From Escherichia coli (GTDB lineage Bacteria; Pseudomonadota; Gammaproteobacteria; Enterobacterales; Enterobacteriaceae), in the NCBI RefSeq assembly GCF_013122565.1, contig NZ_CP053258.1: a stretch of 64,000 nt of DNA. One strand, given 5' to 3'. Positions 1,810-57,574 of this stretch are shown piece after piece (the first letter of the stretch is position 1; each line of letters begins with the position of its first letter). The notes beneath the pieces were generated by a model, which did not search any database, was not told the DNA's origin, and saw nothing but the letters and a program-made list of their open reading frames with translations. The translations under genes and the position numbers were made by a program.

Positions 1810-2499
1810 TTACTCACTCTCTGCCGGTAATACTGGCATCCAGTCAATCGGCGTCTCGCCATGTTGTTCCAGCCACTGATTTGCCAGCACAAAATGGTTA
1901 CAGCCAAAGAATCCACGATGCGCAGAAAGCGGTGACGGATGCGGTGCTTTCAGTACGTGATGGCGTTGCTTATCTATAATCGCCCCTTTCTTTTGCGCAT
2001 GCGATCCCCACAACAAAAACACCACGCCTTCGCGATGCTGGTTAATCAGGCTGATCACTTTATCGGTGAAGGTTTCCCAGCCGAGGCTGGCGTGGGAATG
2101 CGCCTGACCTGCGCGTACCGTCAACACAGTATTGAGTAGCAGAACGCCCTGACGCGCCCAGCTTTCAAGATAACCATGATTAGGGCGGGTGAAGCCCGGA
2201 ATAGTATTTTCCAGCTCTTTATACATATTCAGCAGTGACGGAGGAGTGGCGATTCCGGGGCGAACGGAAAATGCCAGCCCATGCGCCTGTCCCGGTCCGT
2301 GATAAGGATCCTGGCCGAGAATCACCACTTTAACGTCACCCAACTCTGTAAAGCGGAACGCGTTAAAGACATCCTTTTGTGGCGGATAGATAGTGACGCC
2401 GGCCTGCCGCTCGCTGGCGACGGTCTGTAGGGTATTAAGAAAATAGGGTTGTTGCTTCTCTTCAGCCAGCACGTCATGCCAGGTTAATTCGTTTGCCAT
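1810..2499 (-). CDS. ung: Uracil-DNA glycosylase
   Basis: 229-aa [23 protein letters not shown]...; contains the GQDPYH active-site motif; length matches Ung. Confidence 0.97.
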
Positions 2500-2643: not shown

Positions 2644-2682
2644 TAAAATCCATTTGCGACCATACTTGATGTGTGGTTTTTA

Positions 2683-2696
2683 TTGATTTAAATCAA
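2683..2696 (+). promoter_or_regulatory. FNR binding site (proximal) in grcA promoter
   Basis: Perfect FNR consensus TTGAT-ttaa-ATCAA about 110 bp upstream of the grcA ATG. Confidence 0.7.
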
Positions 2697-2803
2697 AGAT
2701 TCAAGGGTGTTTGAGGAGTATATATACACTCAAGCAACAATGGTTTTACCAATTGGCCGCGACAGGCTGAACAAATCAAATAATTTTGCCGGGGAGGCAT
2801 CAC

Positions 2804-3187
2804 ATGATTACAGGTATCCAGATTACTAAAGCCGCTAACGACGATCTGCTGAACTCTTTCTGGCTGCTGGACAGCGAAAAAGGCGAAGCGCGTTGCATCG
2901 TTGCAAAAGCAGGTTATGCAGAAGATGAAGTGGTTGCAGTAAGCAAACTGGGTGACATTGAATACCGTGAAGTTCCAGTAGAAGTGAAACCAGAAGTTCG
3001 CGTTGAAGGTGGTCAACACCTGAACGTTAACGTTCTGCGTCGTGAAACTCTGGAAGATGCAGTTAAGCATCCGGAAAAATATCCGCAGCTGACCATCCGT
3101 GTATCCGGATATGCAGTTCGCTTTAACTCTCTGACTCCGGAACAGCAGCGCGACGTTATTGCTCGTACCTTTACTGAAAGCCTGTAA
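2804..3187 (+). CDS. grcA: Stress-induced alternate pyruvate formate-lyase subunit (glycyl-radical cofactor)
   Basis: ORF track 2786..3187; ATG at 2804 ([12 protein letters not shown]...) gives 127 aa; C-terminal glycyl-radical motif RVSGYAV. Confidence 0.95.
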
Positions 3188-4872: not shown

Positions 4873-4970
4873 GCCGGATGCGGCGTGAACGCCTTATCCG
4901 GCCTACAAGATCGTGCAAATTCAATATATTGCATGAGCCACGTAGGCCTGATAAGCGTAGCGCATCAGGC
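4873..4970. repeat. BIME (two inverted REP elements)
   Basis: GCCGGATGCGGCGTGAACGCCTTATCCGGCCTAC and GTAGGCCTGATAAGCGTAGCGCATCAGGC, canonical REP palindromes between convergent yfiE and srmB. Confidence 0.9.
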
Positions 4971-6488: not shown

Positions 6489-8842
<2,354 letters not shown>

Positions 8843-9130
8843 TTAATTTACTAAACACGGTTTGGTCAGCATAGCATCATGTTGTGCGAATAAACACCTG
8901 CTATTTTAATATTTGTTACAGTGGCTAAACACGCTGACGCAGGGCGGCGAGAAAAAGAGAAGTTACTGGCTGGTGGAGGATTAGGTGGTGAAATAAAAAG
9001 GCCGTTGGGTTACTCTTCAGGCAGTTAAATGGGCATTTCTACACAGATAATGCGATGTTCAGATTCTGTAGACTTATAATGATAGATAATGATCCGTCTA
9101 CAGCATGACAAACAAAAACAGATGCGTTAC

Positions 9131-9159
9131 GGAACTTTACAAAAACGAGACACTCTAAC
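9131..9159 (+). promoter_or_regulatory. Sigma-E-dependent rpoE promoter
   Basis: GGAACTT -35 element, 16-nt spacer, TCTAAC -10 element; matches the sigma-E consensus about 80 bp upstream of rpoE. Confidence 0.75.
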
Positions 9160-9240
9160 CCTTTGCTTGCTCAAATTGCAGCTAATGGAGTGGCGTTTCG
9201 ATAGCGCGTGGAAATTTGGTTTGGGGAGACTTTACCTCGG

Positions 9241-9816
9241 ATGAGCGAGCAGTTAACGGACCAGGTCCTGGTTGAACGGGTCCAGAAGGGAGATCAGAAA
9301 GCCTTTAACTTACTGGTAGTGCGCTATCAGCATAAAGTGGCGAGTCTGGTTTCCCGCTATGTGCCGTCGGGTGATGTTCCCGATGTGGTACAAGAAGCTT
9401 TTATTAAAGCCTATCGTGCGCTGGATTCGTTCCGGGGAGATAGCGCTTTTTATACATGGCTGTATCGGATTGCTGTAAATACAGCGAAAAATTACCTGGT
9501 TGCTCAGGGGCGTCGTCCACCTTCCAGTGATGTGGATGCCATTGAAGCTGAAAACTTCGAAAGTGGCGGCGCGTTGAAAGAAATTTCGAACCCTGAGAAC
9601 TTAATGTTGTCAGAAGAACTGAGACAGATAGTTTTCCGAACTATTGAGTCCCTCCCGGAAGATTTACGCATGGCAATAACCTTGCGGGAGCTGGATGGCC
9701 TGAGCTATGAAGAGATAGCCGCTATCATGGATTGTCCGGTAGGTACGGTGCGTTCACGTATCTTCCGAGCGAGGGAAGCTATTGATAACAAAGTTCAACC
9801 GCTTATCAGGCGTTGA
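9241..9816 (+). CDS. rpoE: RNA polymerase sigma-E factor (sigma-24)
   Basis: ORF track 9208..9816; ATG at 9241 (MSEQLTDQVLVERVQKGDQKAF...) gives 191 aa. Confidence 0.97.
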   Translation: MSEQLTDQVLVERVQKGDQKAFNLLVVRYQHKVASLVSRYVPSGDVPDVVQEAFIKAYRALDSFRGDSAFYTWLYRIAVNTAKNYLVAQGRRPPSSDVDAIEAENFESGGALKEISNPENLMLSEELRQIVFRTIESLPEDLRMAITLRELDGLSYEEIAAIMDCPVGTVRSRIFRAREAIDNKVQPLIRR

Positions 9817-9848
9817 CGATAGCGGGATACTGGATAAGGGTATTAGGC

Positions 9849-10499
9849 ATGCAGAAAGAACAACTTTCCGCTTTAATGGATGGCGAAACGCTGGATAGTG
9901 AGCTGCTTAACGAACTGGCTCATAACCCAGAAATGCAGAAAACCTGGGAAAGCTATCACTTAATCCGTGACTCAATGCGGGGTGATACTCCCGAGGTGCT
10001 CCATTTCGATATCTCTTCACGCGTGATGGCCGCCATTGAAGAAGAGCCAGTACGTCAACCGGCGACATTGATCCCGGAAGCCCAGCCTGCGCCGCATCAA
10101 TGGCAGAAAATGCCATTCTGGCAGAAAGTACGTCCGTGGGCGGCACAGCTTACCCAAATGGGCGTAGCCGCATGCGTATCGCTTGCAGTTATCGTTGGCG
10201 TCCAGCACTATAATGGACAATCTGAAACGTCCCAGCAGCCCGAAACGCCGGTATTTAATACACTGCCGATGATGGGTAAAGCCAGCCCGGTAAGCCTGGG
10301 AGTACCTTCTGAAGCGACCGCAAACAATGGTCAACAGCAGCAGGTACAGGAGCAGCGTCGTCGCATTAATGCAATGTTGCAGGATTACGAACTGCAACGC
10401 CGACTCCACTCTGAACAGCTTCAGTTTGAGCAGGCGCAAACCCAGCAAGCCGCTGTACAGGTGCCAGGAATTCAAACTTTAGGAACGCAATCGCAGTAA
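9849..10499 (+). CDS. rseA: Anti-sigma-E factor
   Basis: ORF track 9813..10499; ATG at 9849 (MQKEQLSALMDGETLD...) gives 216 aa; single central transmembrane segment; stop overlaps rseB start (TAATG). Confidence 0.95.
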   Translation: MQKEQLSALMDGETLDSELLNELAHNPEMQKTWESYHLIRDSMRGDTPEVLHFDISSRVMAAIEEEPVRQPATLIPEAQPAPHQWQKMPFWQKVRPWAAQLTQMGVAACVSLAVIVGVQHYNGQSETSQQPETPVFNTLPMMGKASPVSLGVPSEATANNGQQQQVQEQRRRINAMLQDYELQRRLHSEQLQFEQAQTQQAAVQVPGIQTLGTQSQ

Positions 10500-11455
10500 T
10501 GAAGCAACTTTGGTTTGCCATGTCATTAGTGACAGGTAGCCTGTTATTCTCTGCTAACGCCTCGGCCACTCCCGCGTCCGGGGCGTTATTACAGCAGATG
10601 AACCTGGCCAGTCAGTCACTGAATTACGAGCTGTCATTCATCAGCATCAATAAACAGGGTGTTGAGTCTCTGCGTTATCGACATGCACGCCTCGATAACC
10701 GTCCTCTTGCACAATTGTTGCAAATGGATGGCCCGCGCCGGGAAGTGGTACAGCGCGGCAATGAAATCAGCTATTTTGAACCGGGACTTGAACCGTTCAC
10801 GCTTAATGGCGATTACATTGTTGATTCTCTGCCATCGCTCATCTATACCGATTTCAAACGCCTTTCTCCTTACTACGACTTTATCTCCGTCGGGCGCACG
10901 CGTATTGCTGATCGTCTTTGCGAAGTTATTCGCGTGGTTGCCCGAGATGGTACACGCTACAGCTACATCGTGTGGATGGACACCGAATCGAAATTACCGA
11001 TGAGGGTTGATCTCCTTGATCGCGATGGTGAAACGCTGGAACAATTTCGCGTGATTGCTTTTAATGTCAATCAGGATATCAGCAGCAGTATGCAGACGCT
11101 GGCGAAGGCAAATTTGCCGCCGTTGCTTTCTGTTCCTGTAGGTGAAAAAGCTAAATTCAGCTGGACGCCAACCTGGTTGCCACAGGGTTTTAGCGAAGTT
11201 TCCAGTAGTCGACGTCCGCTACCGACGATGGACAACATGCCTATCGAATCACGTCTCTATTCCGACGGATTATTCAGCTTCTCGGTAAACGTTAACCGCG
11301 CTACGCCATCGAGCACCGATCAGATGTTGCGCACCGGACGCAGAACCGTCAGTACAAGCGTACGTGATAACGCCGAAATCACCATTGTCGGTGAACTGCC
11401 GCCGCAAACGGCGAAACGCATTGCCGAGAATATTAAGTTCGGGGCAGCGCAATGA
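10499..11455 (+). CDS. rseB: Sigma-E regulatory protein RseB (periplasmic)
   Basis: 318-aa ORF with N-terminal signal peptide MKQLWFAMSLVTGSLLFSANASA. Confidence 0.95.
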   Translation: MKQLWFAMSLVTGSLLFSANASATPASGALLQQMNLASQSLNYELSFISINKQGVESLRYRHARLDNRPLAQLLQMDGPRREVVQRGNEISYFEPGLEPFTLNGDYIVDSLPSLIYTDFKRLSPYYDFISVGRTRIADRLCEVIRVVARDGTRYSYIVWMDTESKLPMRVDLLDRDGETLEQFRVIAFNVNQDISSSMQTLAKANLPPLLSVPVGEKAKFSWTPTWLPQGFSEVSSSRRPLPTMDNMPIESRLYSDGLFSFSVNVNRATPSSTDQMLRTGRRTVSTSVRDNAEITIVGELPPQTAKRIAENIKFGAAQ

Positions 11456-11931
11456 TCAAAGAGTGGGCTACCGTCGTCTCCTGGCAAAACGGGCAGGCGC
11501 TGGTCAGTTGTGATGTTAAAGCCTCATGCAGCAGCTGCGCTTCACGCGCCGGTTGCGGTAGCCGCGTGTTGAATAAACTTGGCCCGCAAACCACGCATAC
11601 CATTGTCGTACCCTGTGATGAGCCGTTAGTGCCGGGGCAAAAAGTGGAATTGGGGATCGCCGAAGGCAGCCTGCTTAGCTCCGCATTACTGGTTTATATG
11701 TCGCCGCTGGTGGGATTATTCCTCATCGCTTCGCTATTTCAGCTACTCTTTGCTTCTGACGTCGCAGCATTATGTGGTGCTGTCCTCGGCGGTATTAGCG
11801 GGTTCCTGATTGCGCGTGGCTACTCGCGTAAGTTTGCTGCCCGGGCAGAATGGCAACCGATCATCTTAAGCGTGGCATTGCCGCCTGGCCTTGTGCGATT
11901 TGAAACATCTTCGGAAGACGCGAGCCAGTGA
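11452..11931 (+). CDS. rseC: Sigma-E regulatory protein RseC
   Basis: 159-aa ORF, ATGA overlap with rseB; cysteine-rich N-terminus and two hydrophobic segments. Confidence 0.93.
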   Translation: MIKEWATVVSWQNGQALVSCDVKASCSSCASRAGCGSRVLNKLGPQTTHTIVVPCDEPLVPGQKVELGIAEGSLLSSALLVYMSPLVGLFLIASLFQLLFASDVAALCGAVLGGISGFLIARGYSRKFAARAEWQPIILSVALPPGLVRFETSSEDASQ

Positions 11932-12128
11932 TTTCACTGGCTTTGTTGCATTTTGCATAACAAATGCGAGGACGTTTCCAGATACCACAATCCATACGGT
12001 ATGAACATTTCCTCGCCTCAATGTTGTAGTGTAGAATGCGGCGTTTCTATTAATACAGACGTTAAGCTCAGAACAGCGACTTCTAAAAGCCTGGTTAACC
12101 GGGCATTAAGGCACAATAATCATACTTT

Positions 12129-13928
<1,800 letters not shown>

Positions 13929-14971: not shown

Positions 14972-15062
14972 GAGATAAATCTCCCGTGGCTAACGACATC
15001 CCCCGTCGTTGTGTATAGAATATTCCCCCGAAGTTTAAGGTTGGCACCTCCAGGTTGCCACG

Positions 15063-15156
15063 GCACACGAAACAGCGTTGGTCCCCATATACCGGTAAAC
15101 TGAAACTGCAGCGAAGCAGTTAGCAGAACCATGTATATCAGGTCTGTTTCGTGTGC
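15063..15156 (+). promoter_or_regulatory. rnc leader long-range hairpin (likely the RNase III autoregulatory processing site)
   Basis: Perfect 13-bp complement gcacacgaaacag (15063-15075) / ctgtttcgtgtgc (15144-15156) closing an approximately 94-nt structured 5' UTR element ending 34 nt before the rnc ATG. Confidence 0.6.
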
Positions 15157-15159
15157 TGA

Positions 15160-16772
<1,613 letters not shown>

Positions 16773-18654: not shown

Positions 18655-18727
18655 TAAAGTAAAACCCCCGAACTGGTAAGGAACGGGGGTTTTACTTTAT
18701 TTTGTGCAGCACGCACCCTCAATGAGG
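18655..18727 (-). ncRNA. ohsC: OhsC antitoxin sRNA of the ShoB/OhsC type I toxin-antitoxin pair (ends approximate)
   Basis: Known to be encoded divergently upstream of shoB. Minus-strand RNA from about 18727 would begin with a 20-22-nt segment complementary to the shoB 5' UTR (18952-18973) and end at the bidirectional terminator; a CATAAT -10-like hexamer sits just upstream on the minus strand. Boundaries are inferred, not measured. Confidence 0.45.
18661..18700. terminator. Bidirectional intrinsic terminator (acpS on plus strand, candidate OhsC 3' end on minus strand)
   Basis: Perfect 10-bp stem aaaacccccg/cgggggtttt with 13-nt loop, flanked by A- and T-runs on both sides. Confidence 0.8.
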
Positions 18728-26600: not shown

Positions 26601-27587
26601 GCCAATGGGCAGACTGTATTCAGCGAAAGCCGCACTACGTTGCGTGTCTGGTGGGCAGAAACTACCTGGCAGATGCAGCGCCTGCGTGACAACCCGGAGT
26701 GTGCCGATCAGGAGCATCAGGCGAAATATAACGACGCCGATCCGGGCCTGAATGTAAAACTGTCGTTCGATATCAACGAAGATGTGGCAGCACCGTATAT
26801 TGCCACTGGCGCACGTCCGAAAGTTGCCGTACTGCGTGAGCAGGGCGTGAACTCGCATGTTGAAATGGCGGCAGCTTTCCACCGTGCGGGCTTTGATGCT
26901 ATCGACGTGCATATGAGCGACCTGCTGACTGGACGCACGGGACTGGAGGATTTCCACGCCCTGGTCGCGTGCGGCGGTTTCTCCTACGGTGATGTACTGG
27001 GTGCCGGTGAAGGTTGGGCGAAGTCTATCCTGTTCAATGACCGTGTACGCGATGAGTTTGCAACCTTCTTCCATCGTCCGCAAACGCTGGCGCTGGGGGT
27101 ATGTAACGGTTGCCAGATGATGTCTAACCTGCGCGAACTGATCCCAGGTAGTGAGTTGTGGCCACGTTTTGTGCGCAATACCTCCGATCGCTTTGAAGCG
27201 CGTTTCAGCCTGGTTGAAGTAACCCAAAGCCCGTCTCTGCTGTTGCAGGGGATGGTGGGCTCGCAAATGCCGATTGCTGTCTCTCATGGTGAAGGGCGCG
27301 TGGAAGTGCGTGATGCGGCGCATCTGGCGGCACTGGAAAGCAAAGGGCTGGTGGCACTGCGCTATGTCGATAACTTCGGCAAAGTCACTGAAACCTACCC
27401 GGCTAACCCGAACGGTTCACCGAACGGTATTACGGCGGTTACGACTGAAAGCGGTCGAGTTACCATTATGATGCCGCACCCGGAACGTGTTTTCCGTACT
27501 GTCAGCAACTCCTGGCATCCGGAAAACTGGGGCGAGGATGGCCCATGGATGCGCATTTTCCGCAATGCGCGTAAGCAGTTGGGGTAA
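23700..27587 (+). CDS. purL: Phosphoribosylformylglycinamidine synthase
   Basis: 1295-aa [26 protein letters not shown]...; large single-chain FGAM synthase with C-terminal glutaminase domain. Confidence 0.98.
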
Positions 27588-27610: not shown

Positions 27611-27641
27611 GCCCGGATGAGGCATTCACGCCGCATCCGGC
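27611..27641. repeat. REP element downstream of purL
   Basis: GCCCGGATGAGGCATTCACGCCGCATCCGGC, canonical REP palindrome. Confidence 0.85.
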
Positions 27642-27664
27642 ATTAAGCACCAACCACTATCATA

Positions 27665-27690
27665 AGCTCCCAACTCCGGGAGCTTTTTTG
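27665..27690 (+). terminator. Intrinsic terminator downstream of purL
   Basis: Stem agctccc/gggagct with 6-nt loop followed by TTTTTTG. Confidence 0.75.
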
Positions 27691-27708
27691 TGTCTGTAAA
27701 TCACGACA
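27691..27708 (+). promoter_or_regulatory. GlrR (QseF) binding site 1 upstream of glmY
   Basis: TGTC-N10-GACA (tgtctgtaaatcacgaca), the NtrC-family GlrR recognition pattern. Confidence 0.7.
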
Positions 27709-27723
27709 ATGGGTGGTTTGCCG

Positions 27724-27741
27724 TGTCGCTTTTTGGTGACA
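27724..27741 (+). promoter_or_regulatory. GlrR (QseF) binding site 2 upstream of glmY
   Basis: TGTC-N10-GACA (tgtcgctttttggtgaca). Confidence 0.75.
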
Positions 27742-27786
27742 CATAACTGATTGATTTTACTGAAATCTAATAAGTTTATCTTAAGT

Positions 27787-27804
27787 TGTCTCTTTTTGGC
27801 GACA
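27787..27804 (+). promoter_or_regulatory. GlrR (QseF) binding site 3 upstream of glmY
   Basis: TGTC-N10-GACA (tgtctctttttggcgaca), about 100 bp upstream of the sigma-54 promoter, typical enhancer distance. Confidence 0.75.
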
Positions 27805-27893
27805 CAGTGGCTGAATTACATTCAAATAGCGAAGAAGCCATAAATCCCTCAAAGCAGCGTATAATCAGTACGTTACCAAACTATTTTCTTTAT

Positions 27894-27909
27894 TGGCACA
27901 GTTACTGCA
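27894..27909 (+). promoter_or_regulatory. Sigma-54 (-24/-12) promoter of glmY
   Basis: TGGCACagttaCTGCA: GG at 27895-27896 and GC at 27907-27908 with exact 10-nt spacing; a sigma-70 promoter is known to overlap it. Confidence 0.8.
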
Positions 27910-27920
27910 TAATAGTAAGC

Positions 27921-28104
27921 AGTGGCTCATTCACCGACTTATGTCAGCCCCTTCGGGACGTGCTACATAAAATTCGAATGACGCACAACAAGGTGCCTGC
28001 CGTCCAACTTCTGATATCAGCGTAGCTATATCAACCATCGGGCGAAACGTCGAGTTAGGCACCGCCTTATTCCATAACAAAGCCGGGTAATTCCCGGCTT
28101 TGTT
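27921..28104 (+). ncRNA. glmY: GlmY small RNA (ends approximate)
   Basis: Transcript from about 12 nt downstream of the -12 element (AGUGGCUCAUUCACCGACUUAUGUCAGCCCC...) to a terminator hairpin at 28078-28102; location between purL and glrK matches GlmY. Confidence 0.8.
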
Positions 28105-28110
28105 GTATCT
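28078..28110 (+). terminator. GlmY intrinsic terminator (leaky; glrK lies immediately downstream)
   Basis: Stem aaagccggg/cccggcttt with loop taattc, followed by GTTGTATCTG. Confidence 0.7.
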
Positions 28111-28162
28111 GAACTTCCCCTCGGTTAGCATCAGGCTATTCGCGTCTGACGAGAGTAACACC

Positions 28163-29590
28163 TTGAAACGCTGGCCCGTTTTTCCCCGCTCATTACGACA
28201 ACTGGTAATGCTGGCATTTTTGCTGATTCTGCTGCCCCTGTTGGTGCTGGCATGGCAAGCCTGGCAAAGCCTGAATGCGCTTAGCGACCAGGCGGCGCTG
28301 GTCAACCGCACCACGCTTATCGATGCCCGGCGCAGTGAAGCGATGACCAACGCGGCGCTGGAGATGGAGCGTAGCTACCGTCAGTATTGCGTGCTGGATG
28401 ACCCTACGCTTGCGAAGGTTTATCAAAGCCAGCGCAAGCGTTACAGCGAAATGCTCGATGCCCACGCAGGCGTACTGCCAGACGATAAACTTTACCAGGC
28501 ATTGCGTCAGGATTTGAACAATCTGGCCCAACTTCAGTGTAACAACAGTGGTCCCGATGCTGCCGCCGCCGCGCGTCTTGAAGCCTTTGCCAGTGCCAAT
28601 ACCGAAATGGTGCAGGCCACGCGCACAGTGGTGTTCTCTCGTGGGCAGCAACTTCAGCGTGAAATCGCCGAACGTGGGCAATATTTTGGTTGGCAATCGC
28701 TGGTGCTATTTCTGGTGAGTCTGGTGATGGTGCTACTTTTCACGCGGATGATTATCGGGCCGGTGAAAAATATTGAACGGATGATCAATCGGTTGGGGGA
28801 AGGGCGTTCTCTGGGCAATAGCGTTTCGTTCAGTGGACCGAGCGAGTTACGCTCGGTTGGGCAACGTATTCTTTGGTTAAGTGAGCGCCTGTCATGGCTG
28901 GAATCCCAACGCCATCAATTTTTAAGACATTTATCTCATGAATTAAAAACGCCACTGGCGAGTATGCGCGAGGGCACTGAATTACTGGCCGATCAGGTTG
29001 TCGGGCCGCTTACGCCAGAGCAAAAAGAGGTGGTGAGCATTCTTGATAGCAGCAGCCGCAATTTGCAAAAACTGATCGAACAACTGCTTGATTACAACCG
29101 TAAACAGGCGGACAGTGCGGTGGAACTGGAGAATGTTGAATTAGCACCGCTGGTGGAGACAGTGGTTTCTGCTCATAGCCTGCCCGCACGGGCTAAAATG
29201 ATGCATACCGACGTCGATCTCAAAGCAACAGCTTGCCTGGCGGAGCCAATGCTGCTGATGAGCGTACTGGATAATCTTTACTCCAATGCGGTGCACTACG
29301 GGGCTGAATCCGGTAACATTTGCCTTCGCAGCAGTTTACATGGTGCGCGGGTTTATATTGATGTCATCAATACAGGCACACCCATTCCGCAAGAGGAACG
29401 CGCCATGATCTTCGAACCCTTTTTTCAGGGAAGCCACCAGCGAAAAGGGGCGGTGAAGGGCAGCGGTCTGGGATTAAGCATTGCCAGGGATTGTATTCGC
29501 CGTATGCAAGGGGAACTGTATCTGGTCGACGAGAGCGGGCAAGACGTTTGTTTCCGCATTGAATTGCCGTCGTCGAAAAACACGAAATAA
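28163..29590 (+). CDS. glrK: Sensor histidine kinase GlrK (QseE)
   Basis: ORF track 28100..29590; the 475-aa form (KRWPVFPRSLRQLVMLAFLLILLPLLV...) would start at the TTG at 28163; two transmembrane segments, H-box HELKTPLASM and ATP-binding domain. Confidence 0.9.
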   Translation: MKRWPVFPRSLRQLVMLAFLLILLPLLVLAWQAWQSLNALSDQAALVNRTTLIDARRSEAMTNAALEMERSYRQYCVLDDPTLAKVYQSQRKRYSEMLDAHAGVLPDDKLYQALRQDLNNLAQLQCNNSGPDAAAAARLEAFASANTEMVQATRTVVFSRGQQLQREIAERGQYFGWQSLVLFLVSLVMVLLFTRMIIGPVKNIERMINRLGEGRSLGNSVSFSGPSELRSVGQRILWLSERLSWLESQRHQFLRHLSHELKTPLASMREGTELLADQVVGPLTPEQKEVVSILDSSSRNLQKLIEQLLDYNRKQADSAVELENVELAPLVETVVSAHSLPARAKMMHTDVDLKATACLAEPMLLMSVLDNLYSNAVHYGAESGNICLRSSLHGARVYIDVINTGTPIPQEERAMIFEPFFQGSHQRKGAVKGSGLGLSIARDCIRRMQGELYLVDESGQDVCFRIELPSSKNTK

Positions 29591-29754: not shown

Positions 29755-30468
29755 ATGCGACACATTTTTCAACGATTATTGCCCCGACGGCTGTGGCTGG
29801 CAGGGCTGCCATGTCTGGCATTGCTGGGTTGCGTGCAGAGTCACAATAAGCCAGCCATTAATACGCCAGCAGAAGAAAAAATTCCGGTTTATCAACTGGC
29901 TGACTATCTTTCTACTGAATGTAGCGACATCTGGGCGCTGCAAGGTAAATCAACCGAAACCAATCCGCTTTACTGGCTGCGGGCGATGGATTGTGCTGAT
30001 CGTTTAATGCCTGCGCAGTCGCGTCAGCAAGCTCGCCAATATGACGACGGCAGCTGGCAAAATACCTTTAAACAAGGGATTTTGCTCGCCGACGCCAAAA
30101 TTACGCCGTATGAGCGCCGCCAGCTGGTCGCGCGTATTGATGAGTTAAGTACCGAGATCCCGGCACAGGTTCGCCCTCTGTATCAACTCTGGCGCGACGG
30201 TCAGGCGCTGCAACTGCAACTGGCGGAAGAGCGCCAACGCTACGGCAAGCTCCAGCAATCCAGCGACAGCGAGCTGGATACATTGCGCCAGCAACATCAC
30301 GTTCTACAGCAGCAACTGGAACTCACCACCCGCAAGCTGGAAAACCTGACCGATATTGAACGCCAGCTCTCGACCCGCAAACCGGCTGGAAATTTCTCGC
30401 CGGATACGCCGCACGAGGGTGAAAAGCCCGCGCCATCCACCCATGAGGTCACTCCTGATGAGCCATAA
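29755..30468 (+). CDS. qseG: Outer-membrane lipoprotein QseG (YfhG), accessory to GlrK
   Basis: ORF track 29590..30468; ATG at 29755 (MRHIFQRLLPRRLWLAGLPCLALLGCVQSH...) gives 237 aa with lipoprotein signal peptide and lipobox LLGC; coiled-coil C-terminus. Confidence 0.88.
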   Translation: MRHIFQRLLPRRLWLAGLPCLALLGCVQSHNKPAINTPAEEKIPVYQLADYLSTECSDIWALQGKSTETNPLYWLRAMDCADRLMPAQSRQQARQYDDGSWQNTFKQGILLADAKITPYERRQLVARIDELSTEIPAQVRPLYQLWRDGQALQLQLAEERQRYGKLQQSSDSELDTLRQQHHVLQQQLELTTRKLENLTDIERQLSTRKPAGNFSPDTPHEGEKPAPSTHEVTPDEP

Positions 30469-31792
30469 ACCTGCGCATTTATTATTGGTCGATGACGATC
30501 CGGGATTGCTGAAACTGCTTGGCCTGCGCCTGACCAGCGAAGGCTACAGTGTGGTCACGGCGGAAAGTGGCGCTGAAGGATTACGGGTACTGAATCGCGA
30601 AAAAGTAGATTTAGTTATCAGCGACCTGCGGATGGATGAAATGGACGGTATGCAGCTGTTTGCTGAAATCCAGAAAGTGCAGCCGGGAATGCCGGTAATT
30701 ATCCTTACCGCGCATGGTTCTATTCCCGATGCCGTTGCAGCAACACAGCAGGGCGTTTTTAGTTTCCTCACCAAGCCTGTCGATAAAGACGCGCTATATC
30801 AGGCAATTGACGATGCGCTGGAACAATCCGCGCCAGCCACCGACGAACGCTGGCGCGAGGCGATTGTCACCCGCAGCCCGCTGATGCTGCGTTTGCTGGA
30901 ACAGGCGCGGCTGGTGGCGCAATCAGACGTCAGCGTTTTGATTAACGGCCAGAGCGGCACCGGGAAAGAGATTTTCGCCCAGGCTATCCACAACGCCAGC
31001 CCGCGCAATAGCAAACCATTTATTGCTATTAACTGTGGCGCATTGCCCGAGCAATTGCTGGAGTCGGAGCTGTTTGGTCATGCGCGTGGCGCGTTTACTG
31101 GCGCTGTCAGCAATCGCGAAGGTTTATTCCAGGCGGCGGAAGGCGGTACGCTATTTCTCGATGAGATTGGCGATATGCCCGCACCGTTGCAGGTCAAACT
31201 GCTGCGCGTGTTGCAGGAGCGTAAAGTGCGCCCGCTGGGCAGTAACCGCGATATTGATATCGACGTGCGGATTATTTCCGCCACTCACCGCGACCTGCCA
31301 AAAGCGATGGCGCGCGGGGAATTCCGTGAAGATCTCTATTACCGCCTCAACGTTGTCAGCCTGAAAATTCCGGCTCTGGCGGAGCGCACAGAAGATATTC
31401 CGCTACTGGCAAATCACCTGTTGCGCCAGGCGGCAGAGCGACATAAACCGTTTGTCCGCGCGTTCTCCACCGATGCGATGAAACGCCTGATGACTGCGAG
31501 CTGGCCGGGTAATGTACGCCAGTTGGTCAACGTGATTGAACAGTGCGTGGCGCTGACCTCATCTCCGGTGATTAGTGATGCATTAGTAGAGCAGGCGCTG
31601 GAGGGCGAAAACACGGCGCTGCCAACCTTTGTCGAAGCGCGTAATCAGTTTGAACTCAACTATTTGCGTAAGCTGCTGCAAATCACCAAAGGTAACGTCA
31701 CCCATGCGGCGAGAATGGCGGGGCGCAACCGGACAGAATTTTATAAACTGCTTTCCCGACACGAGCTGGATGCAAACGATTTCAAGGAATGA
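30458..31792 (+). CDS. glrR: Sigma-54-dependent response regulator GlrR (QseF)
   Basis: ORF track 30356..31792; ATG at 30458 ([18 protein letters not shown]...) gives 444 aa; receiver domain, AAA+ sigma-54 activation domain with GAFTGA motif, C-terminal HTH; overlaps qseG by 11 nt. Confidence 0.95.
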
Positions 31793-31816: not shown

Positions 31817-32191
<375 letters not shown>

Positions 32192-57463: not shown

Positions 57464-57574
57464 TAAAAAGAATTCAGAATCAGGCCGGGGCGTATCGCGC
57501 TCCGTAAACACGGTCGTACATCCAGCCGGTAGCCTGATTCCTTGCATTGAGTGATGTACGGAGTTTATAGAGCA

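What the first reader, a model, noticed from the sequence alone, without database searches (positions are those of the whole stretch)
27691..28110. GlmY sRNA with sigma-54 promoter and three GlrR enhancer sites, immediately upstream of glrK-qseG-glrR
Three TGTC-N10-GACA sites sit 90-230 bp upstream of a textbook -24/-12 promoter (GG-N10-GC), followed by an approximately 184-nt structured RNA gene and a terminator that abuts glrK. The regulator that drives the sRNA is encoded just downstream, giving a compact self-contained circuit. Two spurious ORFs in the track (27786-28025 plus strand, 27931-28350 minus strand) overlap this RNA gene and should not be annotated as proteins.
Basis: partly seen in the sequence, partly recalled or inferred. 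Interest (0 to 1): 0.4.

Follow-up and report, generated by a model that had tools for sequence, protein, structure and literature searches.

The report
Known glmY small-RNA gene and promoter

Summary
The observation and the interpretation both hold.

- **RNA gene:** Window 27921-28104 (+) is glmY. It scores 147.1 bits against Rfam GlmY (gathering score 33), and both ends coincide with the E. coli K-12 b4441 annotation.
- **Control region:** Upstream lie the only three TGTC-N10-GACA sites in the 64 kb, at -230, -197 and -134. A sigma-54 promoter, TGGCAC-N5-CTGCA, sits at 27894-27909.
- **Downstream genes:** glrK (28163-29590), qseG (29755-30468) and glrR (30458-31792).
- **Conservation:** RNA, promoter, sites and gene order recur in about 115 Enterobacterales species, with compensatory base changes in the RNA stems.
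- **The two ORFs:** They have no family match, are not annotated in RefSeq and are rarely intact in other species, so they are spurious.

- a weak sigma-70 -10 box (CATAAT, 27908-27913) overlapping the sigma-54 promoter;
- two IHF consensus sites (27744-27756, 27863-27875);
- 3' processing of the RNA to 148 nt (end at 28068);
- a 58-nt spacer before glrK that holds a separate glrK promoter, so the terminator does not strictly abut glrK and the kinase/regulator operon is not autoregulated in K-12.

Verdict: already known, low interest.

The parts
27691..27708 (+). GlrR/QseF binding site 1 (the paper's 'ABS' sites), TGTCTGTAAATCACGACA, at -230 from glmY +1
   Evidence: Exact TGTC-N10-GACA match. 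A site at this offset recurs in related species. Published as the site dispensable for promoter activity (PMC3045617).
27724..27741 (+). GlrR/QseF binding site 2, TGTCGCTTTTTGGTGACA, at -197
   Evidence: Exact match. The half-sites are identical to K-12 and only the spacer bases differ. Conserved position. Published as essential.
27744..27756 (-). IHF consensus site between binding sites 2 and 3 (AATCAATCAGTTA)
   Evidence: Perfect WATCARNNNNTTR match. A perfect match lies in this zone in 73 of 115 loci, against 6 of 230 zones in shuffled controls. The literature places IHF-like sites flanking site 3 and shows IHF is required.
27787..27804 (+). GlrR/QseF binding site 3, TGTCTCTTTTTGGCGACA, at -134
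   Evidence: Exact match. Conserved position. Published as essential.
27863..27875 (+). IHF consensus site between binding site 3 and the promoter (AATCAGTACGTTA), at -58
   Evidence: Perfect consensus match. Found at -59 to -56 on the + strand in 24 of 115 loci.
27894..27909 (+). Sigma-54 promoter TGGCACAGTTACTGCA (GG at -26/-25, GC at -14/-13)
   Evidence: One mismatch to TGGCAC-N5-TTGCA. A TGGCA[CT]...TGC motif lies in the last 32 nt before +1 in 114 of the 117 entries with full upstream sequence (116 loci plus the window itself).
27908..27913 (+). -10 box CATAAT of the weak overlapping sigma-70 promoter
   Evidence: Read directly from the sequence. Published as the sigma-70 -10 that overlaps the sigma-54 -12 element in E. 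coli glmY. Present in 50 of the 117 entries. The generic sigma-70 scan does not call it because the -35 is poor.
27921..28104 (+). glmY, full-length 184-nt primary transcript
   Evidence: Both ends map onto K-12 b4441. Rfam RF00128 scores 147.1 bits. The fold has three stem-loops with z = -5.5. Covariation is seen in 112 sequences.
27921..28068 (+). Processed 148-nt GlmY, the form reported to be active in vivo (stem-loops 1 and 2)
   Evidence: The Rfam match ends at 28068, which is 148 nt from +1. The literature describes 184 nt processed at the 3' end to 148 nt (PMC4152352). The processing site is inferred here, not measured.
28076..28104 (+). Intrinsic terminator hairpin of glmY (AACAAAGCCGGG-TAATT-CCCGGCTTTGTT)
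   Evidence: 12-bp stem in the minimum-energy fold. The stem keeps pairing through compensatory changes in other genera, such as GCCGGG, GGCAGGG and GCCAGGC. The simple terminator scan missed it because the T run is interrupted.
28103..28138 (+). Presumed sigma-70 promoter of glrK-qseG-glrR (candidate -35 TTGTAT 28103-28108, candidate -10 TAGCAT 28126-28131, start near 28138)
   Evidence: [quoted passage not shown] The hexamer assignment is my inference from the sequence.
28163..29590 (+). glrK (qseE), sensor histidine kinase, TTG start, 475 aa
   Evidence: RefSeq annotation of 98%-identical E. coli DNA. Pfam HAMP, HisKA and HATPase_c domains.
29755..30468 (+). qseG (yfhG), outer-membrane lipoprotein needed for kinase activity
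   Evidence: NCBIfam NF007997 equivalog, 358 bits against a cut-off of 234. Pfam YfhG lipoprotein.
30458..31792 (+). glrR (qseF), sigma-54-dependent response regulator that binds the three sites
   Evidence: NCBIfam NF011695 equivalog, 982 bits against a cut-off of 763. Pfam Response_reg, Sigma54_activat and AAA_lid_14 pass their cut-offs; HTH_8 matches only below its cut-off (16.9 bits against 22).

Best explanation
The segment is the glmY locus of an E. coli/Shigella-type chromosome.

Shown elsewhere by experiment and inferred here by homology:
1. Phosphorylated GlrR (QseF) binds the three TGTC-N10-GACA sites.
2. IHF bends the DNA between those sites and the promoter.
3. GlrR's ATPase domain opens the sigma-54 RNA polymerase complex at TGGCAC-N5-CTGCA, and transcription starts at 27921.
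4. A weak sigma-70 promoter with the -10 box CATAAT overlaps the sigma-54 -12 element. It starts at the same base and gives basal expression.
5. The 184-nt transcript ends at the hairpin 28076-28104 and is trimmed to 148 nt.
6. GlmY mimics its homologue GlmZ and sequesters the RNase E adaptor protein RapZ. [quoted passage not shown]
7. RapZ free of glucosamine-6-phosphate stimulates GlrK/GlrR, and GlmY binding switches that off. This closes a feedback loop that keeps the supply of cell-envelope precursor steady.
8. The kinase, its lipoprotein partner and the regulator are encoded directly downstream from their own constitutive promoter.

Shown here: the sequence elements, their positions, the RNA family membership, the conserved structure and the gene order.
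For: - RNA family: Rfam GlmY at 147.1 bits against a gathering score of 33, full model, + strand.
- Annotation: both ends coincide with K-12 b4441, with one base difference inside the RNA, at 27974 in an unpaired stretch.
- Distribution within E. coli: the locus is present in 5425 of 5426 complete E. coli genomes.
- GlrR sites: three exact sites, the only ones in 64 kb.
- Promoter and IHF: the sigma-54 motif and two perfect IHF consensus sites.
- Conservation: among Enterobacterales loci found through a pattern internal to GlmY, 114 of the 117 entries scored (116 loci plus the window) have the sigma-54 motif just upstream, and 94 of 117 have at least three site-like motifs (one mismatch allowed) at conserved offsets. 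glrK follows on the same strand in 101 of 106 loci.
- RNA structure: 97.2% of cells are paired, and 12 of 35 pairs show changes on both sides. No shuffle out of 500 reached the observed values, and the slid controls were far lower.
- Proteins: GlrR and QseG pass their equivalog cut-offs.
- Mechanism from the literature: PMC3045617, PMC4152352, PMC6075780, PMC7073468.
Against: - No expression data exist for this particular genome. The transcription start, the processing site and the dependence on sigma-54, GlrR and IHF are all transferred from K-12.
- The generic sigma-70 scan finds no promoter here, so the sigma-70 component rests on the published CATAAT box alone.
- Folding energy does not tell the strands apart (z = -5.5 for +, -4.1 for -). 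The strand is set by the covariance model, the promoter and the annotation.
- Helix 1 and part of helix 3 were fixed by my search pattern, so their invariance carries no information.
- The sigma-54 motif with up to two mismatches is not enriched in the window (18 found, 28 expected), so the motif alone would not be significant.
Confidence: 0.97

Rival explanations
1. One or both ORFs that overlap the segment (27786-28025 on +, 27931-28350 on -) are real protein-coding genes, and the RNA-like features are incidental.
For: Both ORFs exist. Their translations give tblastn matches in many related loci.
Against: - Those matches follow from DNA conservation of glmY and of the glrK coding strand.
- The + ORF is never found as a single stop-free match covering at least 90% of its length among 74 loci with any match, including other Escherichia species. 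The - ORF is found so in only 5 of 112.
- Neither has a Pfam or NCBIfam match.
- No CDS is annotated there in K-12 or in strain ET565.
- The - ORF matches often split into two pieces: the part antisense to glrK and the part antisense to glmY.
Confidence: 0.01
2. glmY is functionally the leader of a glmY-glrK-qseG-glrR operon. Read-through of the terminator would couple regulator synthesis to its own target promoter, giving positive autoregulation, as the phrase 'self-contained circuit' implies.
For: - Only 58 nt separate the glmY 3' end from the glrK start.
- The T tail of the terminator is interrupted (GCTTTGTTGT).
- An operon glmY-qseE-qseG-qseF is reported for Proteus mirabilis (abstract of PMC8745638).
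Against: - In E. coli K-12 the qseEGF operon has its own sigma-70 promoter, starting 25 bp upstream of qseE.
- An earlier paper states that the two are transcribed independently (PMC3045617).
- The spacer in the window is identical to K-12.
Confidence: 0.08
3. The RNA is GlmZ, the homologous base-pairing sRNA, rather than GlmY.
For: GlmY and GlmZ are homologues placed in the same Rfam clan, CL00011. The literature calls them highly similar in sequence and structure.
Against: - cmscan keeps only the best family of a clan at one place, and that family is GlmY.
- The position between purL and glrK is the conserved glmY position.
- The sequence is 183/184 identical to K-12 glmY.
Confidence: 0.005

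Closest known systems
E. coli K-12 glmY (b4441; formerly sroF/tke1), Rfam RF00128
   Same: Same position, same strand logic and same length (184 nt). 183 of 184 bases are identical. The sigma-54 motif, the CATAAT box, the half-sites of all three GlrR sites, the terminator and the spacer to glrK are identical.
   Different: - One base inside the RNA: 27974 is T where K-12 has A, in an unpaired stretch.
- The base at -2 is G where K-12 has C.
- There are a few substitutions in the N10 spacers of binding sites 2 and 3 and between the sites.
- A REP-like palindrome upstream of the purL terminator is 18 nt longer.
- None of these touches a defined functional element.
GlmZ (Rfam clan CL00011), the homologous sRNA
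   Same: Homologous first and central stem-loops. Both bind RapZ (PMC4152352).
   Different: GlmZ carries the glmS-pairing segment and is the direct activator. In E. coli it is transcribed from a plain sigma-70 promoter without GlrR sites (PMC3045617). The RNA here is the decoy, not the base-pairing partner.
Other sigma-54 promoters driven by NtrC-family activators with IHF, such as glnHp2, and the QseF-dependent rpoE P2
   Same: Upstream activator sites more than 100 bp away, IHF-assisted looping, a GG/GC promoter, and an activator with receiver, AAA+ and HTH domains.
   Different: This promoter drives a non-coding RNA. It is exactly superimposed on a sigma-70 promoter that uses the same start site (PMC3045617, PMC6358824).

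Membership tests
GlmY sRNA (Rfam RF00128) | Scores above the family's gathering threshold against the covariance model, over the full model | tested here: met
   147.1 bits against 33, E = 8e-33, model positions 1-163 of 163, + strand, 27921-28068.
GlmY sRNA (Rfam RF00128) | Two conserved stem-loops plus an intrinsic terminator, with pairing maintained across species | tested here: met
   The minimum-energy fold gives three stem-loops, z = -5.5. Across 112 sequences, 97.2% of cells are paired and 12 pairs show changes on both sides, above all shuffles and slid controls. The outer helices were partly fixed by the search pattern.
GlmY sRNA (Rfam RF00128) | Conserved position immediately upstream of glrK-qseG-glrR | tested here: met
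   The window order is purL, glmY, glrK, qseG, glrR, glnB. glrK follows on the same strand in 101 of 106 related loci.
GlmY sRNA (Rfam RF00128) | It is GlmY and not GlmZ: no glmS-pairing segment, and it acts as a RapZ decoy | tested here: inconclusive
   Clan competition in cmscan kept GlmY, and the sequence is 183/184 identical to K-12 glmY. Complementarity to glmS was not examined because glmS is not in the window. RapZ binding cannot be tested with these tools.
GlmY sRNA (Rfam RF00128) | Transcript of 184 nt processed to about 148 nt | not testable with these tools
   Transferred from the literature only (PMC4152352). The end of the Rfam match, 28068, equals +148.
GlrR (QseF)-activated sigma-54 promoter | GG and GC elements with 10-nt spacing, placed just upstream of the start | tested here: met
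   TGGCACAGTTACTGCA at 27894-27909, with the GC at -14/-13. The motif is conserved in 114 of the 117 entries scored, 116 loci plus the window.
GlrR (QseF)-activated sigma-54 promoter | Three TGTC-N10-GACA activator sites more than 100 bp upstream | tested here: met
   Exact sites at -230, -197 and -134, the only three in 64 kb. The same offsets recur in related genera. This matches the published description.
GlrR (QseF)-activated sigma-54 promoter | IHF site(s) between the activator sites and the promoter | tested here: met
   Perfect consensus at 27744-27756 (-) and 27863-27875 (+). Enriched at the same offsets across species, 73 and 26 of 115, against 6 of 230 zones in shuffles. Binding itself was not tested.
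GlrR (QseF)-activated sigma-54 promoter | Cognate activator with a sigma-54 interaction domain | tested here: met
   GlrR equivalog NF011695 at 982 bits against a cut-off of 763. Pfam Sigma54_activat at 247 bits.
GlrR (QseF)-activated sigma-54 promoter | Transcription depends on rpoN, glrR, glrK and IHF | not testable with these tools
   Shown for K-12 in PMC3045617. Not measurable here.
Overlapping sigma-70 promoter of glmY | A -10 hexamer CATAAT that overlaps the sigma-54 -12 element | tested here: met
   CATAAT at 27908-27913 (-13 to -8), sharing its C with the GC element. Present in 50 of the 117 entries scored, in line with the published restriction to some genera. The generic scan does not call a promoter because the -35 matches only 2-3 of 6.
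GlrK/QseG/GlrR (QseE/QseG/QseF) two-component operon | Kinase, lipoprotein and regulator genes in this order | tested here: met
   QseG and GlrR pass their equivalog cut-offs. The kinase has HAMP, HisKA and HATPase_c domains and is annotated qseE/glrK in 98%-identical E. coli DNA. NCBIfam holds no dedicated GlrK model that it passes.

The most novel reading that the evidence does not exclude
The strain-specific substitutions might shift the balance between sigma-54 and sigma-70 initiation, or change GlrR affinity, relative to K-12. These are the changes in the N10 spacers of binding sites 2 and 3, at -2, and at +54 of the RNA. Alternatively, terminator read-through might give this lineage a GlrR autoregulatory loop that K-12 lacks. 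Nothing in the sequence suggests either. All defined elements are identical to K-12, and the same variants occur in other E. coli such as strain ET565.
Probability: 0.03. Interest if true: 0.2.

Novelty: already known. Interest (0 to 1): 0.07.

Why it matters
This adds nothing to biology, because glmY, its dual promoter and the GlrK/QseG/GlrR system have been dissected in E. coli since 2009. Its value is for annotation. It confirms that an unaided reading of raw sequence located the RNA gene to the base. It gives exact coordinates for the regulatory elements in this window. It also shows that the two overlapping ORFs should not be called as proteins.

Tried and rejected
- **Generic sigma-70 and terminator scan.** It found no promoter, and it missed the glmY terminator because the T run is interrupted. 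It did pick up the purL terminator at 27664-27685. It is therefore not informative for this locus.
- **Folding both strands.** Both fold well below shuffled sequence, so energy does not assign the strand.
- **Sigma-54 consensus with up to two mismatches.** It gave 18 hits against 28 expected, so the motif alone is not significant. Only its quality, position and conservation count.
- **Relaxed site pattern TGT-N12-ACA.** It gave 20 hits against 13 expected, only weakly enriched, and is too loose to map sites.
- **tblastn of the two ORF translations.** It gave many hits, but these reflect DNA conservation of glmY and of the antisense of glrK. Counting stops and coverage was the informative test.
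- **Chance hits in the genome-collection scan.** Three hits (L073 Clostridiales, L084 Saprospiraceae, L088 Acidobacteriaceae) were chance matches, close to the handful I estimated by hand for a 22-base pattern. They were excluded from the RNA alignment and the IHF count but remained in the promoter table.
- **Expensive searches not run.** I did not run protein-database or structure searches, because the proteins are identified by curated equivalog models.

Full report
**What is in the sequence**

The window around 27.6-28.2 kb was read directly. purL ends at 27587. It is followed by a REP-like palindrome and a terminator-like hairpin at 27664-27685.

The pattern TGTC-N10-GACA occurs exactly three times in the whole 64-kb window: at 27691-27708, 27724-27741 and 27787-27804. 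About 0.86 matches are expected by chance, and all three lie within 114 bp.

TGGCACAGTTACTGCA at 27894-27909 matches the sigma-54 consensus TGGCAC-N5-TTGCA with one mismatch. The only other hit with a single mismatch in the window, at 10707, lacks the GG.

A scan of the window against all Rfam families at their gathering thresholds gives GlmY_tke1 (RF00128) at 27921-28068 on the + strand. The score is 147.1 bits against a threshold of 33, E = 8e-33, and the whole model is covered.

**Identity with the annotated gene**

The 901 bases around the finding occur in 5425 of 5426 complete E. coli genomes at 90-98% identity. A 24-kb stretch reaches 98.8%. The window therefore comes from an E. coli/Shigella-type chromosome.

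In K-12 MG1655 the ncRNA glmY (b4441) is annotated at 2691157-2691340, 184 nt, between purL and glrK. Aligning the two sequences places its 5' end at window 27921 and its 3' end at 28104.

Inside the RNA there is one difference from K-12, at 27974, in an unpaired stretch. The following are identical to K-12:
- the sigma-54 motif;
- the half-sites of all three TGTC-N10-GACA sites;
- the terminator;
- the 58-nt spacer to the glrK start (TTG, 28163).

**Structure**

The + strand RNA folds into three stem-loops, at RNA positions 2-66, 72-143 and 156-184. The energy is -64.2 kcal/mol, z = -5.5 against shuffles. The opposite strand also folds well (z = -4.1), so energy does not decide the strand. 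The covariance model, the promoter and the annotation do.

**Related loci**

By their record titles, all but three are labelled Enterobacterales or carry a glrK homologue downstream. They span Escherichia, Salmonella, Citrobacter, Enterobacter, Klebsiella, Pantoea, Erwinia, Serratia, Yersinia, Photorhabdus, Rahnella, Hafnia and Edwardsiella. The three others (Clostridiales, Saprospiraceae, Acidobacteriaceae) are chance matches.

Promoter features were counted over 117 entries with at least 260 nt of upstream sequence: 116 loci plus the window itself.

| Feature | Count |
|---|---|
| Sigma-54 motif within 32 nt of the inferred start | 114 of 117 |
| At least three site-like motifs (one mismatch allowed) at conserved offsets (-230/-197/-134 in the Escherichia type, about -247/-215/-152 in Serratia and Yersinia) | 94 of 117 |
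| glrK homologue following on the same strand | 101 of 106 loci long enough to tell |
| purL upstream | 87 of 103 |

An alignment of 112 distinct GlmY sequences gives a consensus structure of 35 pairs. Of the cells, 97.2% are paired. Twelve pairs show changes on both sides, covering 176 cells. No shuffle out of 500 reaches any of the five measures, and the slid controls give 28-42% pairing. Helix 1 and part of helix 3 were fixed by the search pattern, so their invariance says nothing. The informative covariation lies in helices 2, 4, 5 and 6 and in the terminator.

- **Overlapping sigma-70 promoter.** The published E. coli glmY promoter is dual. A sigma-70 -10 box, CATAAT, overlaps the sigma-54 -12 element and starts transcription at the same base (PMC3045617). 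CATAAT is present at 27908-27913 and in 50 of the 117 entries. That agrees with the paper's statement that it is confined to some genera. The simple sigma-70 scan does not call it because the -35 is poor, which fits a promoter described as weak (PMC6075780).
- **IHF sites.** IHF is required for the sigma-54 promoter, and two IHF-like sites flank the third GlrR site. The window has perfect WATCARNNNNTTR matches at 27744-27756 (-) and 27863-27875 (+). Perfect matches recur in the corresponding zones in 73 and 26 of 115 loci, against 6 of 230 zones in shuffled controls.
- **3' processing.** The 184-nt RNA is trimmed at its 3' end to 148 nt, and that form acts in vivo (PMC4152352). Position +148 is 28068, where the Rfam match ends.
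- **Separate glrK promoter.** The terminator does not abut glrK. The 58-nt spacer holds a separate sigma-70 promoter whose start lies 25 bp upstream of the glrK start codon. According to that paper's section heading and figure legend, the operon is not transcriptionally autoregulated in K-12 (PMC6075780). By position, TAGCAT at 28126-28131 and TTGTAT at 28103-28108 are candidate -10 and -35 boxes. That assignment is my inference.

**Flanking genes**

- QseG (29755-30468) passes its NCBIfam equivalog cut-off, 358 bits against 234.
- GlrR (30458-31792) passes its equivalog cut-off, 982 bits against 763. It has receiver, sigma-54-interaction and AAA-lid domains above their Pfam cut-offs, plus an HTH_8 match below its cut-off.
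- GlrK (28163-29590) has HAMP, HisKA and HATPase_c domains. It is annotated qseE/glrK in near-identical E. coli DNA.
- glnB follows at 31853-32191.

**The two ORFs**

Both exist: 27786-28025 (+) of 79 aa and 27931-28350 (-) of 139 aa. Neither matches any Pfam or NCBIfam family. RefSeq annotates no CDS there in K-12 or in strain ET565.

Their translations find tblastn matches in related loci only because they overlie conserved DNA. No locus has a single stop-free match covering at least 90% of the + ORF, out of 74 with any match. Only 5 of 112 do for the - ORF.

**Mechanism (literature, transferred by homology)**

1. RapZ free of glucosamine-6-phosphate stimulates phosphorylation of GlrK/GlrR.
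2. GlrR binds the three sites and, with IHF, activates the sigma-54 promoter.
3. Processed GlmY sequesters RapZ.
4. GlmZ then escapes RapZ/RNase E cleavage and activates glmS translation.
5. GlmY binding also stops RapZ from stimulating the kinase, which limits the response.

The sources are PMC7073468, PMC4152352 and PMC3045617. None of these steps can be measured with the tools here.

**Verdict**

The feature is already known in full detail and the interest is low.

Noticed in passing
window 8834-9240 (nadB-rpoE intergenic region); rpoE about 9241-9816 (+), with rseA, rseB and rseC at 9813-11931: rpoE carries the second published target promoter of GlrR/QseF, the sigma-54-dependent rpoE P2, and rpoE lies in the same window about 18 kb upstream of glmY. 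The relaxed site pattern TGT-N12-ACA matches at 8840-8857 and 8914-8931 in this intergenic region. There is no exact TGTC-N10-GACA there. I did not locate the sigma-54 promoter itself.
   Followed up: partly
window 27612-27650: The REP-like palindrome between the purL stop and the purL terminator is 18 nt longer than in K-12 and matches strain ET565. This is ordinary strain-to-strain variation of a repetitive extragenic element.
   Followed up: no
window 11416-12247 (-), 15030-15244 (+), 18656-18720 (-), 57464-57573 (+), 4907-4949 (+): Other Rfam matches above their gathering scores: AsrC (antisense to rseC), rncO, the ohsC antitoxin RNA, the iscRS stability element and ES036. All are expected for this E. 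coli chromosome region.
   Followed up: no
window 28076-28104: The glmY terminator hairpin is flanked by an A-rich run (AACAAA) on its 5' side and TTTGTT on its 3' side. It therefore looks like a terminator on both strands. Its 3' tail overlaps the candidate -35 of the glrK promoter.
   Followed up: no
L025 (Edwardsiella hoshinae), GlmY match at locus 2271-2347 (-); L095 (uncultured Erwinia MAG), GlmY region at locus 2681-2885 (-): Two related loci depart from the usual architecture. In Edwardsiella hoshinae my strict sigma-54 motif and all site-like motifs were absent from the 260 nt upstream of a good GlmY match. In the Erwinia MAG the sigma-54 motif is present but no GlrR-like site or glrK was found.
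   Followed up: no
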